Shown piece by piece: positions 24,001-27,000 of a DNA stretch of 64,000 bases. The stretch lies in assembly GCF_045037415.1 (NCBI RefSeq), contig NZ_CP173440.1. One strand, 5' to 3'. Within the stretch, counting starts at the first letter, position 1. Every line of letters starts with the position of its first letter. The stretch is from Escherichia coli (GTDB taxonomy: Bacteria; Pseudomonadota; Gammaproteobacteria; Enterobacterales; Enterobacteriaceae). Made by a program: the position numbers.

Positions 24001-27000
24001 GTGCCCACACTGCGGAAACAGTAGTGCTTTTGCGATGTGTACCTGCGGAAAACTTCTCTGTATTGATGGGCCTGATGATGTGAACTGCCCATGGTGTGGG
24101 AAAGGTTTGTCATTTCAGAGCGAGGGTGGAAATTCAGATTTTAACGTTAGCAGAGGACGCGGCTAATGAGCGAGTTCATTACACCTGAACATAAAATTAT
24201 TGCTCTCATTCTGGAGGCATCAGGGGAACCGACTGATGCTGATAAAGTATGCTGTCTTGGTAACATACCTGATGTTGCCCTTGCTGTGCGGCAGCTGAGA
24301 GAAACGGTCATTCAACACTGTGCAAGCGAAGCCATACCGGCGGAGAACACTCAAACAGTTTCAGAATGTCTTACCCAGCCCTTTTCTGACAAAATCCTCC
24401 CACCTCAAAACTCGGGTGAAAGCGAAGCTGATCGACCTGAGATTGAACCCGTCCATGCCGCTACTGCACTTCAGGGAAATGATAAGCAGGAAGCGCATAG
24501 TGAAATGGTGGATGATACAGCGTCAGAAGGCGTTCAGGGACTCACTGAAGAAGTTCCTGATGCAACCGGGGTCTTACAGACCGAGGCTTCCGTCACGGCG
24601 CAACCAGAAGACATGGATAAAACCAGTCCGGTTGTTTCTGACAACCTTTCAGCTGACACCGCAGTCAGTGCTTTACGGCCCGGGGAAGTACCTCAGAGAG
24701 TGGAGAATAAAACATCCCCTGCCCCCGGAAAAGTGCCGGAGGTGTTTATCATGCTGCCAAATGCACGGGCAGGTGAACCCTACGATGTTCGACTGGAAAT
24801 AGCGACCGATACAGGTGTTGAGGCAGAGATCACGGAGGTTAACTTCTCTCAGGACATAGGGCTGATATTTGATATCAATGAGCGACGCCTCCAGGGGACG
24901 CCAGGGCACAGCGGAGACTTTGAACTGACTGTGAAATGGTCATGCAGCTCACATCGTGATAATGAAAAAAAGTTACTTTTTGTCGTGAACCCTGATCCGA
25001 AAAGTCTCTGGAAAGTGATTGACCCGCCTTCTGATGCACCATTCTACAAGAAGAGTATCGACCACCAGAGTGTCTGTCGGTCAGGTATTCATATTGCCGG
25101 AGCAAGCCGTCGTGGACGCTCCCATGAACATGTAGGCTCTTTTCGTGACGACGATTATTACCTCAACTTCAGTGATGTATCCGGATGGAGTGTATTACTG
25201 GTAGCTGATGGCGCGGGGAGCGCTAAATATTCCCGGGAAGGCTCCCGTATCGTTTCTGAAACTGTTGGTAACTATCTCTTCAACCAGTTCAAGACTGAAA
25301 AAGGTCTTGAGATCAAAAACAGGGTCCTTCGCTGGAACAGTGAGGATCAGCGAGCAGTATGGGAGTTTATGAACCACCACTTCCGACAGGCAGCGGTACT
25401 GGCCGTAAACAATATCAGCAGTGCCGCAATTTTGGCTGAAGATAAAGTAAAGTCATTCTCAACGACTTTACTCGCGACCGTCACTTTTCGCGACGGTGCT
25501 GATCTTTTTGCCGCGTCTTTCTGGTTAGGTGACGGTGCGATAGCTGCATATGGACCTGCTGGCAAAGTCAGAGTGCTTGGGACTCCGGATAGCGGAGAGT
25601 ATGCAGGTCAGACGCGTTTTCTGGATGCCGATGCCGTCAGTGATGCCGGATTCAGTAAACGTATCAGTATCGGTAAGTGGAACGACATATCGCATCTGGT
25701 TCTGATGACGGATGGTGTTTCCGATCCCTGGTTTGAAACGGATAACGGGCTTCAGAATCCACAAAAATGGGACAGGCTGATGGCCGAGCTCTCTCCCCTA
25801 CTCACAGACCCTGAACATGCCTCGGCACAACTGGTGGAGTGGCTTAACTTTTTCTCTCCGGGAAATCACGATGATCGCACAATCATTGTGCTCTGGTGAA
25901 ATTAATGCGATAGCAGGTGGCTATTCATGGCAAATATAATTACATGCAAAACTAAGGATGGAAAAACCATTCAGTATGTCGATGAAGTCATCGGCTCTGG
26001 CTCAATGAAAGACGTTTATTTTTCTCCGGATAAATCATATGTCGTAGCCTTCTACCATAAACCTCAGAATGAACAGGCCCGGGAACGTATCAACATGATC
26101 ACCGGGAGGTACCGGCAGAATATTTTTGAGCAGACTGGTGGAGATTACTGGAAAGGTCTCTTCTGCTGGCCCACTGATGTGGTTGAGCACGCTGATAAGG
26201 TGGGTATTGTTGTACCTGCTTACCAGCAGCATTTCTTCTTCCGATATGGTTCCAAAAACAATGATTTCCTCGGGATCAAAGGACGTGAAAAGGAAGGGAA
26301 ATGGTTTGCCAGCGCGAACAATCAGAATAAATTTCTGGATCCGCGTGAACGTGGCAATACGCTTAACTATCTGAAGGTCTGCATCCTTCTAACGCGTGCA
26401 GTCAGACGAATGCATGCTGCGGGCCTGTGTCATAGTGACCTGAGTTATAAAAATGTGCTGATAGATCCGGAACTAGGCCACGCATGCATTATTGATGTTG
26501 ATGGGCTGGTGGTTCCGGGAAAATTTCCTCCAGACGTGGTTGGTACACCTGATTTTATTGCCCCGGAAGTGGTGAAGACAAGCCATCTCCCCAAAGACGA
26601 TCCCCGCCGCGTATTGCCGAGTATCGCTACCGACCGGCATGCACTTTCGGTACTCATTTACATGTATCTTCTTTTCCGGCATCCGTTACGGGGAGGAAAA
26701 ATTCACGATATCGATGATGAGGTCAGGGATGAGGCGCTTTCCATGGGAGAGCGGGCACTTTTTATCGAACACCCGACTGACAGAAGCAATGCAGTTAAAG
26801 TTAATCAGGTTCTCATCGTTTTCGCTCCCGTGGGCAGATCCTCAGAAAATCCCGTACACCATTATGGGGCCCTACCTGAAACCTCTCTTCGACCGGGCTT
26901 TTATTGATGGGTTGCATGATCCGTCGAAGCGCCCTACAGCCGATGAATGGGAGAGCGCCCTGGTAAAAACCGTCGATCTCATCCAGCCATGCCAGAACAA

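What the first reader, a model, noticed from the sequence alone, without database searches (positions are those of the whole stretch)
24370..24730. Long acidic low-complexity linker inside the PP2C protein
Between a small N-terminal domain and the PP2C catalytic domain there is a stretch of roughly 120 residues rich in D/E/T/S/P/Q (…SGESEADRPEIEPVHAATALQGNDKQEAHSEMVDDTASEGVQGLTEEVPDATGVLQTEASVTAQPEDMDK…). This suggests an intrinsically disordered tether or interaction region, unusual for bacterial PP2C enzymes.
Basis: seen in the sequence. Interest (0 to 1): 0.3.

Follow-up and report, generated by a model that had tools for sequence, protein, structure and literature searches.

The report
Disordered acidic linker in TerY-P phosphatase
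The stretch is a real, floppy, acidic spacer inside a plasmid-borne PP2C phosphatase of the tellurite-resistance (TerY-P) gene cluster; such spacers are normal for this enzyme family, and the only new detail is a tiny invariant motif hidden at its end.

Summary
Residues 69-189 of the 577-aa PP2C protein (window 24166-25899, +) are acidic (net -15), have one aromatic residue and get AlphaFold2 pLDDT 33-48 with no secondary structure. The segment is not low-complexity by entropy.

The gene is the phosphatase of a TerY-P triad (vWA TerY proteins, PP2C, Ser/Thr kinase). It lies in the ter region of a large Klebsiella pneumoniae IncFIB/IncHI1B plasmid, and the same sequence is present and annotated in hundreds of plasmids.

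The linker is typical of the family. Across 87 diverse bacterial loci the pre-Ig extension has a median of 136 aa (range 0-271). It is aromatic-poor, S/T/P/Q-rich and mostly acidic.

The linker has two parts. Residues 56-140 are hypervariable (0-144 aa in 45 close homologues, 6% identity). Residues 141-189 have near-constant length and carry an invariant L-[KR]-P-G-[QE]-[VI]-P motif (L170-P176), locked 15-20 residues before the Ig domain.

Best reading: a disordered tether plus a docking motif whose partner is unknown. This is ordinary, so interest is low.

The parts
24166..25899 (+). PP2C-family Ser/Thr phosphatase gene of the TerY-P triad (577 aa); contains the finding
   Evidence: ORF. Pfam PP2C_2 at 162.7 bits against a cut-off of 24. 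Foldseek matches to PPM1A/PPM1B/tPphA at E of about 1e-9. The DNA is 100% identical to CDSs annotated as PP2C-domain/PP2C-family phosphatase (WP_032412835.1 in NZ_CP072809.1) in K. pneumoniae plasmids. The ATG overlaps the upstream stop as TAATG, with GAGGA 8 nt upstream.
24184..24327 (+). N-terminal three-helix head (residues 7-54)
   Evidence: Helices at 7-18, 25-32 and 35-54 with pLDDT above 90 in the full model and mean pLDDT 87 when modelled alone. It is alignable in all 45 close homologues (24% median identity). It was detected in 23 of 82 family members with an extension above 40 aa. No structural or sequence relative was found.
24331..24585 (+). Hypervariable acidic disordered spacer (residues 56-140)
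   Evidence: pLDDT 33-39 and no secondary structure. Median identity to homologues is 6%, and length ranges 0-144 aa (median 53) in 45 close homologues. At the DNA level, similarity to the Raoultella orthologue begins only at gene base 649.
24586..24732 (+). Near-constant-length pre-Ig segment (residues 141-189), predicted disordered but conserved in length
   Evidence: Length is 30-49 residues (median 49) in 45 homologues. It holds the invariant motif. In 36 of 46 aligned sequences it also holds W-x-x-M-P-[FY] at positions 145-150. The query and its four nearest relatives lack that second motif; the query reads A-Q-P-E-D-M.
24673..24693 (+). Invariant short motif L170-R-P172-G173-E-V-P176 (family consensus L-[KR]-P-G-[QE]-[VI]-P)
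   Evidence: L170, P172, G173 and P176 are invariant in 46 of 46 sequences at 44-72% overall identity. Across 87 diverse loci, x-P-G-x-x-P occurs 41 times in the last 45 aa before the Ig domain. It occurs 2 times in 8,730 residues further upstream and 2 times in 35,603 core residues. In 39 of 41 cases it lies 15-20 residues before the Ig start. The codons were read directly.
24733..25053 (+). Ig-like beta-sandwich domain (residues 190-296), He_PIG-like
   Evidence: Strands span 193-275 with pLDDT above 90. The domain is 107 residues in all 45 homologues. The aligned region of homologue P0017 hits Pfam He_PIG at E 5.6e-8, and 10 of 65 family members hit it. The profile also matches giant proteins with up to 39 repeats. 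The query itself gives no Pfam hit.
25054..25896 (+). PP2C catalytic domain (residues 297-577)
   Evidence: Invariant acidic/Gly motifs across 65 family members include D348-G-A-G, D456, D475, T515-D516-G517 and H568-D-D570.
23111..24166 (+). Upstream vWA + TerY_C protein (context, translationally coupled)
   Evidence: Pfam VWA and TerY_C. A TerY_C gene lies directly upstream of the PP2C gene in 77 of 87 loci.
25927..27427 (+). Cognate Ser/Thr kinase gene (context); frameshifted in this window
   Evidence: Pfam Pkinase. One extra T at about 26810 splits the gene, compared with the intact 1,500-nt CDS in NZ_CP072809.1 and CP034201.2.
21753..23033 (+). TerD-family gene (21753-22394) and TerY-like vWA gene (22395-23033) (context)
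   Evidence: Pfam TerD and VWA; annotation of identical plasmids.

Best explanation
The segment is the intrinsically disordered inter-domain region of the TerY-P-triad PP2C phosphatase. It has two functionally different parts.

Part 1, residues 56-140. This is a fast-evolving acidic spacer that is poor in aromatic residues. Only its bulk properties (flexibility, negative charge, solubility) are maintained. It tethers a small, clade-specific three-helix head (residues 7-54) to the conserved core.

Part 2, residues 141-189. This segment has near-constant length and carries an invariant, position-locked motif L-[KR]-P-G-[QE]-[VI]-P about 17 residues before the Ig-like domain.

What is shown: the disorder-type composition and the low-confidence, structure-free prediction; the length and sequence hypervariability; the conserved motif and its fixed position; and the architecture head, linker, Ig, PP2C inside a TerY (vWA), PP2C, kinase operon.

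What is inferred: the head and the motif are protein-protein contact points. They would position the Ig-PP2C core on a partner or substrate of the triad (kinase, TerY vWA proteins or TerD), or on its own core, while the spacer sets reach and keeps the two contact points independent. Which partner is involved is not known.
For: - Composition and charge-hydropathy values are on the disordered side.
- AlphaFold2 gives pLDDT 33-48 and no secondary structure for residues 56-184, between domains scoring above 90.
- The hypervariable part spans 0-144 aa at 6% identity, against 49.5% for the Ig domain and 65.8% for PP2C.
- Against a 98.8%-identical Klebsiella allele, the linker has 3 synonymous and 3 nonsynonymous changes, while PP2C has 12 and 1 (small numbers).
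- In 67 family members, linker against core shows aromatic content 3% vs 9% (P 1e-12), S/T/P/Q 35% vs 21% (P 1e-12) and net charge per residue -0.063 vs -0.041 (P 3e-4).
- Motif residues L170, P172, G173 and P176 are invariant in 46 of 46 sequences.
- The motif is about 38-fold enriched just upstream of the Ig domain and sits at a fixed 15-20-residue distance in 39 of 41 cases.
- The reading frame is kept through all indels in every homologue. The start is coupled to the upstream gene (TAATG) and has a GAGGA Shine-Dalgarno sequence.
- The operon context of TerD, vWA, vWA-TerY_C, PP2C and kinase is conserved from Enterobacterales to Bacteroidales. It matches the published TerY-P triad (PMC11090510).
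Against: - No binding partner was identified.
- The motif is not confidently docked on the protein's own core in the monomer model; block-mean pLDDT is 41-58 over residues 161-190.
- Motif presence tracks phylogeny. All Enterobacterales and many Chromatiales and Betaproteobacteria have it; the Acinetobacter/Moraxellaceae and Bacteroidota loci lack it. It shows no significant link to presence of the TerY_C gene (Fisher P 0.18).
- Six of 87 family members have almost no extension (under 20 residues) yet keep the same operon. The tether is therefore dispensable for the core function.
- Disorder is predicted, not measured.
- The primary description of the triad (Anantharaman et al. 2012) could not be read here. 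Prior mention of these features cannot be excluded.
Confidence: 0.7

Rival explanations
1. The region is a passive filler only. The whole of 56-189 would be a neutrally drifting spacer with no sequence-specific role, and the P-G-x-x-P element would merely be a structural N-terminal cap of the Ig-like domain.
For: The motif keeps a fixed distance to the Ig domain. pLDDT rises gradually from 41 to 58 towards the Ig domain. Family members with no extension exist in the same operon. The dN/dS pattern in the linker looks neutral.
Against: Four invariant residues sit inside otherwise unalignable sequence (6-18% identity) at 44-72% overall identity, which indicates strong selection. The motif is absent from many family members that keep an intact Ig domain, so the Ig fold does not need it. 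AlphaFold2 does not pack it onto the Ig domain with confidence. A second conserved motif, W-x-x-M-P-[FY], lies 25 residues upstream in most relatives.
Confidence: 0.2
2. The region is a regulatory phospho-acceptor or pseudosubstrate. The S/T-rich acidic stretch would be phosphorylated by the adjacent kinase, or would occupy the PP2C active site, tuning phosphatase activity or recruiting a phospho-binding module.
For: There are 24 Ser+Thr in 134 residues. The gene pairs obligatorily with a Ser/Thr kinase. In 23 of 46 close homologues Ser or Thr follows the motif directly.
Against: No individual Ser or Thr in the linker is conserved. My impression of an FHA-like module in the kinase C-terminus found no support in Pfam. 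In the query the residue after the motif is Gln.
Confidence: 0.1
3. The region is a cation or MIDAS ligand. The acidic stretch would supply carboxylates to the metal-ion-dependent adhesion site of the TerY vWA proteins, or would bind Ca2+ or other metals alongside TerD.
For: Net charge is -15, and linkers are net-negative in 58 of 75 family members. Three vWA proteins and a TerD-family protein are encoded directly upstream.
Against: No acidic residue is conserved in position. Seventeen of 75 linkers are neutral or basic. Family-wide, linker acidity only modestly exceeds that of the core, -0.063 against -0.041. No test of binding was possible.
Confidence: 0.07
4. The region is an artefact. Either it is not translated because the true start lies downstream near the Ig domain, or it really encodes the overlapping +1-frame ORF 24320..24802 (160 aa).
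For: An alternative-frame ORF of 160 aa exists. One gene caller truncated the N-terminus of a relative (L011).
Against: The N-terminal head is conserved and confidently folded. The frame stays open through every indel in all homologues. The start is coupled as TAATG with a Shine-Dalgarno sequence. The alternative-frame ORF is not maintained in relatives. It is broken into pieces of 101 and 62 codons in Raoultella, and into pieces of at most 136 codons in the four other genomes checked. No Rfam family matches the region.
Confidence: 0.02

Closest known systems
PP2C component of the TerY-P triad (TerY vWA, PP2C phosphatase, Ser/Thr kinase with zinc ribbon) of ter/tellurite-resistance and defence loci. 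Described by Anantharaman, Iyer & Aravind 2012, as summarised in PMC11090510.
   Same: It has the same gene order and the same Pfam families: TerD, VWA, VWA+TerY_C, PP2C_2, Pkinase. It sits in a ter region and the DNA is identical to annotated plasmid genes. It is a member of this family.
   Different: Nothing differs at the family level. Three features are not mentioned in the summaries I could read: the head-linker-Ig N-terminal region, its length statistics, and the position-locked L-[KR]-P-G-[QE]-[VI]-P motif.
Bacterial PP2C phosphatases with N-terminal regulatory modules, such as RsbU, RsbP and SpoIIE of Bacillus subtilis (from my own knowledge, not tested here).
   Same: A PP2C catalytic domain is preceded by a non-catalytic N-terminal module and a connecting segment, and partner proteins control the enzyme through these.
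   Different: In RsbU the connector is a structured helical linker and the head is a four-helix-bundle dimerisation domain. Here the connector is disordered and hypervariable in length, the head has three helices with no detectable relative, and an Ig-like domain is interposed.
Disordered linkers carrying short linear docking motifs in phosphatase and kinase signalling, such as PxIxIT/LxVP for calcineurin or RVxF for PP1 (from my own knowledge; an analogy of mechanism only).
   Same: A short island of 6-7 conserved residues is embedded in otherwise unconserved, disordered sequence.
   Different: There the motif sits on the substrate or regulator and the binding groove is known. Here the motif is on the phosphatase itself at a fixed distance from a folded domain, and no partner or groove is known.
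He_PIG (PF05345) putative Ig domains of bacterial surface and giant repeat proteins.
   Same: A beta-sandwich of about 100 residues is predicted. Ten of 65 family members pass Pfam He_PIG, and the profile matches multi-repeat giants.
   Different: Here it is a single cytoplasmic copy fused to a PP2C domain. The query sequence itself does not reach the Pfam threshold.

Membership tests
PPM/PP2C phosphatases (Pfam PP2C_2) | Sequence match to the family profile above the curated threshold | tested here: met
   PF13672 scores 162.7 bits against a cut-off of 24, covering residues 316-561 and the whole profile. All 65 family members match.
PPM/PP2C phosphatases (Pfam PP2C_2) | PPM fold (central beta-sandwich flanked by helices) | tested here: met
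   The AlphaFold2 model scores pLDDT above 90 over most of residues 298-577. Foldseek matches PPM1A, PPM1B, tPphA, RsbX, Stp1 and SpoIIE with E 3e-9 to 1e-6 and probability 1.00.
PPM/PP2C phosphatases (Pfam PP2C_2) | Conserved metal-binding aspartates and catalytic activity | tested here: inconclusive
   Invariant D329, D348-G-A-G, D456, D475, D516-G517 and D569-D570 are seen across 65 members. This is consistent with metal ligands, but they were not mapped residue by residue onto a solved active site. Activity is not testable here.
TerY-P triad | Operon of TerY-like vWA gene(s), a PP2C gene and a Ser/Thr kinase gene | tested here: met
   In the window: VWA 22395-23033, VWA+TerY_C 23111-24166, PP2C 24166-25899, kinase 25927-27427. 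The same order is seen in identical plasmids and in most of 87 loci. In this window the kinase carries a 1-nt frameshift.
TerY-P triad | Association with ter (TerD/TerA/TerC) genes | tested here: met
   A TerD-family gene lies at 21753-22394. terA, a TerD-family gene and the associated biosynthetic genes lie upstream in the identical plasmid region.
Intrinsically disordered linker | Disorder-type composition, no predicted secondary structure, low model confidence | tested here: met
   See: net charge -15, 1 aromatic in 121 residues, pLDDT 33-48, DSSP all coil.
Intrinsically disordered linker | Rapid sequence and length divergence relative to flanking domains | tested here: met
   Residues 56-140 show 6% median identity and 0-144 aa length. 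The Ig domain shows 49.5% identity with a constant 107 residues, and PP2C shows 65.8%.
Intrinsically disordered linker | Experimentally unfolded in solution | not testable with these tools
   This needs CD, NMR or SAXS.
Low-complexity region (SEG sense) | Local sequence entropy at or below about 2.2 bits in 12-residue windows, or repeats | tested here: not met
   No window reaches the threshold. Mean entropy is 3.05 bits against 3.01 elsewhere. No tandem or direct repeats were found.
Short linear motif (SLiM) | Short conserved island in a disordered, otherwise unconserved context | tested here: met
   L170, P172, G173 and P176 are invariant in 46 of 46 sequences while flanks are 6-18% identical. 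Enrichment is 38-fold and the position is fixed.
Short linear motif (SLiM) | Binds a defined partner domain | not testable with these tools
   Only single-chain prediction without coordinates was available. The monomer model does not dock the motif. There is no association with presence of the TerY_C gene.
He_PIG Ig-like domain (PF05345) | Profile match above threshold | tested here: inconclusive
   The query segment 190-300 gives no hit even at E up to 10. The aligned region of homologue P0017 gives 33.6 bits against a cut-off of 24, and 10 of 65 members match at E below 0.01. A beta-sandwich is predicted with pLDDT above 90.
RsbU-type regulated PP2C | N-terminal four-helix-bundle dimerisation domain joined to PP2C by a helical linker | tested here: not met

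The most novel reading that the evidence does not exclude
The position-locked L-[KR]-P-G-[QE]-[VI]-P element could be a previously undescribed docking motif. Together with the W-x-x-M-P-[FY] element found in most relatives, it might recruit the Ig-PP2C core to its cognate kinase or to a TerY vWA substrate. In that case the 'linker' would be the specificity determinant of TerY-P signalling. Lineages that lost one or both motifs, including this Klebsiella plasmid clade for the W motif, would have rewired the interaction.
Probability: 0.3. Interest if true: 0.45.

Novelty: new member of a known kind. Interest (0 to 1): 0.2.

Why it matters
The ter/TerY-P region is carried by many large Klebsiella virulence and resistance plasmids. 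Related TerY-P modules are reported as anti-phage defence systems (PMC11090510). How the phosphatase finds its target is unknown.

The linker itself is ordinary and typical of the family. The useful outcomes are these:
- A corrected domain map: head, disordered spacer, fixed-length motif segment, Ig-like domain, PP2C.
- A concrete, mutable 7-residue motif that gives experimenters a handle on partner recognition.
- Family-wide numbers showing that the Ig-PP2C core is constant, while the N-terminal head and spacer are lineage-specific and sometimes absent.

Tried and rejected
1. TerY_C as partner of the motif or linker. The first six context look-ups suggested that extension and TerY_C gene occur together. 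With 87 loci the link is weak for length (Mann-Whitney P 0.04) and absent for the motif (Fisher P 0.18). The idea was rejected as unsupported.

2. FHA-like phospho-binding module in the kinase C-terminus. This was my impression from the sequence. Pfam finds only Pkinase and a weak zinc-finger match. The idea was dropped.

3. Identity of the three-helix head.
- Pfam gave nothing.
- A PDB profile search returned only designed helical bundles.
- No assignment was made.

4. PADLOC and NCBIfam gave no model for the PP2C protein.

5. Low complexity or repeat expansion in the query. No SEG-type windows, tandem repeats or direct repeats were found. Some homologues do carry short peptide repeats in their linkers.

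6. Embedded RNA or overlapping gene. No Rfam hit was found. The alternative-frame ORF is not conserved.

7. The primary TerY-P paper (Anantharaman et al. 2012) is not held in the library.

8. A co-folding test of the motif with a partner was considered. It was not run because the predictor takes single chains and returns no coordinates or inter-chain confidence.
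Full report
**Observation**

The finding lies in ORF 24166..25899 (+ strand, 577 aa). Window 24370-24730 corresponds to residues 69-189, and the quoted peptide is there.
- The segment has 23 acidic and 8 basic residues, so net charge is -15.
- D/E/T/S/P/Q make up 53%, and there is a single aromatic residue. The rest of the protein is 9% aromatic (binomial P 1.5e-4).
- Mean hydropathy and charge place it on the disordered side of the Uversky boundary.
- An AlphaFold2 model built on a 46-sequence alignment gives pLDDT 33-48 and no secondary structure for residues 56-184. The flanking domains exceed 90.

So the stretch is real and more extreme than chance. It is not low-complexity. No 12-residue window falls to 2.2 bits, mean entropy equals that of the folded parts (3.05 against 3.01 bits), and the DNA has no tandem or direct repeats.

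**What the gene is**

The DNA is 100% identical to a gene annotated as a PP2C-domain or PP2C-family serine/threonine phosphatase in many large Klebsiella pneumoniae IncFIB/IncHI1B plasmids. There are 959 plasmid records at 95% identity or more.

Pfam finds PP2C_2 at residues 316-561. The model matches solved PPM phosphatases by Foldseek at E of about 1e-9.

The neighbours are a TerD-family gene, vWA (TerY-like) genes, a vWA+TerY_C gene and a Ser/Thr kinase gene. The TerY_C gene's stop overlaps the PP2C start as TAATG. This is the published TerY-P triad of ter loci (PMC11090510). The primary paper could not be opened.

**Corrected architecture**

The model and the alignments give five parts:

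| Residues | Part | Evidence |
|---|---|---|
| 7-54 | Three-helix head | pLDDT above 90 |
| 56-140 | Hypervariable spacer | Disordered, unconserved |
| 141-189 | Pre-Ig segment | Near-constant length |
| 190-296 | Ig-like beta-sandwich | pLDDT above 90, 107 residues in every one of 45 close homologues |
| 297-577 | PP2C domain | Pfam and fold match |

The aligned region of a homologue passes Pfam He_PIG (E 5.6e-8), and 10 of 65 family members do so. A profile of the N-terminal half also hits giant multi-repeat proteins.

**Linker in homologues**

Among 45 close homologues (44-72% identity):
- The 56-140 part ranges from 0 to 144 residues and is 6% identical to the query.
- The Ig and PP2C domains are 49.5% and 65.8% identical.
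- DNA similarity to the Raoultella orthologue begins only at the Ig domain.
- Against a 98.8%-identical Klebsiella allele, the linker has 3 synonymous and 3 nonsynonymous changes, and the PP2C domain has 12 and 1 (small numbers).

I analysed the 80 best loci plus 10 others with my own ORF and HMM pipeline:
- The extension before the Ig domain has a median of 136 residues (IQR 101-190, range 0-271).
- 66 of 87 extensions are at least 100 residues.
- 58 of 75 are net-negative.

In 67 members with long extensions, the linker compares with the core as follows:

| Property | Linker | Core |
|---|---|---|
| Aromatic residues | 3% | 9% |
| S/T/P/Q | 35% | 21% |
| Net charge per residue | -0.063 | -0.041 |

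The query, at -0.126 per residue, is in the most acidic fifth. The linker is therefore a family trait, not an oddity. Six members with almost no extension (under 20 residues) show it is dispensable for the core.

**The conserved island**

Inside the supposed linker, L170, P172, G173 and P176 are invariant in all 46 aligned sequences. The consensus is L-[KR]-P-G-[QE]-[VI]-P, and the query reads LRPGEVP at window 24673-24693.

In the 87 diverse loci the pattern x-P-G-x-x-P is distributed as follows:
- 41 times in the 45 residues before the Ig domain.
- 2 times in 8,730 residues further upstream.
- 2 times in 35,603 core residues.
- In 39 of 41 cases it lies 15-20 residues before the Ig start.

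All Enterobacterales and many Chromatiales and Betaproteobacteria have it. The Acinetobacter/Moraxellaceae and Bacteroidota loci do not.

A second element, W-x-x-M-P-[FY], lies 25 residues upstream in 36 of 46 aligned sequences. It is missing from the query and its four nearest relatives.

**Mechanism**

The best-supported reading is a two-part region.

The hypervariable acidic part behaves as a flexible tether in which only bulk properties are selected. It joins a small, lineage-specific helical head to the core.

The fixed-length part carries a docking-type motif. That the head and motif are contact points for another triad component, or for the enzyme's own core, is inference.

Three tests bear on this:
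- The monomer model does not dock the motif.
- An early hint that the extension co-occurs with the TerY_C gene did not survive a larger sample.
- My impression of an FHA-like module in the kinase was not supported.

**Rivals**

- A purely passive spacer with the motif as an Ig cap cannot be excluded, but it fits poorly with a motif that many Ig-bearing relatives lack.
- A phospho-acceptor role has no conserved Ser or Thr behind it.
- A metal or MIDAS-ligand role has no conserved acidic position behind it.
- Mis-annotation, or an overlapping gene in the 160-codon alternative frame, is rejected. The frame is preserved through all indels, the head is conserved, the start is coupled with a Shine-Dalgarno sequence, the alternative frame is broken in relatives, and no RNA family matches.

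**Verdict**

The 'disordered tether' interpretation is right for two thirds of the stretch. The claim of unusualness is wrong for this family.

The protein is a known, annotated member of the TerY-P PP2C family. The linker is an ordinary example of a known kind of feature. The one small new item is the invariant, position-locked motif, whose partner remains to be found. Interest is low.

Noticed in passing
window 25927-27427 (extra T at about 26810): The Ser/Thr kinase gene downstream of the PP2C gene is split into two ORFs (25927-26907 and 26639-27427). The cause is a single-base insertion relative to the intact 1,500-nt CDS in NZ_CP072809.1 and CP034201.2. Otherwise it is identical to NZ_CP072809.1 over the 1,551 nt aligned. 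This is either a pseudogene or a sequencing error.
   Followed up: partly
window 24598-24615 (residues 145-150): A second linker motif, W-x-x-M-P-[FY], is present in 36 of 46 aligned sequences. It is absent from the query and its four nearest relatives; the query reads A-Q-P-E-D-M.
   Followed up: partly
window 24164-24168: The stop codon of the vWA-TerY_C gene and the start codon of the PP2C gene overlap as TAATG, with GAGGA 8 nt upstream. Abutting or overlapping ORFs of this kind are seen in most of the 87 loci, which suggests translational coupling.
   Followed up: partly
window 24320-24802 (+, alternative frame): A 160-codon ORF in the +1 frame overlaps the linker. It is not maintained in Raoultella, where it breaks into pieces of 101 and 62 codons. 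The four other genomes checked have pieces of at most 136 codons. It is probably a by-product of the acidic codon content.
   Followed up: yes
protein P0003 (K. pneumoniae, 518 aa): A database protein named 'TerX' is a chimera. A TerD-family N-terminus is fused to the PP2C protein from about residue 222. This implies a deletion variant of the locus that removes the intervening vWA genes and the whole head and linker.
   Followed up: no
L002 (CP133157.1, K. variicola plasmid p_AA035), gene bases about 216-800: In this record the PP2C gene is annotated as three CDSs. A pair of compensating frame shifts brackets the linker and Ig region. The cause is likely assembly error.
   Followed up: partly
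L011 6588-8294 (-) and 1745-3133 (+): A metagenomic contig carries two family members. In the one within the operon, the gene caller truncated the N-terminus (386 aa called, about 567 aa by ORF). Its linker contains a (PA)n run and no P-G-x-x-P motif. The second is an orphan copy next to terC that has the motif RPGHIP.
   Followed up: partly
L033-L041, L045, L049, L052, L054 and the Bacteroidales loci (L073, L076, L087, L090, L091): Other clades replace the Enterobacterales-type three-helix head with different short helical N-termini. Chromatiales and Betaproteobacteria show a recurrent '...WGLF...PFFDR...' pattern. Bacteroidales show '...LW.EY...MDRR.II.N' directly before the Ig domain.
   Followed up: no
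window 27834-30800 (-): A Tn3-family (TnAs1-like) transposase gene lies about 400 nt downstream of the kinase gene. It marks the edge of the ter/TerY-P region. In the related plasmid it is followed by IS26 and macrolide-resistance genes.
   Followed up: no
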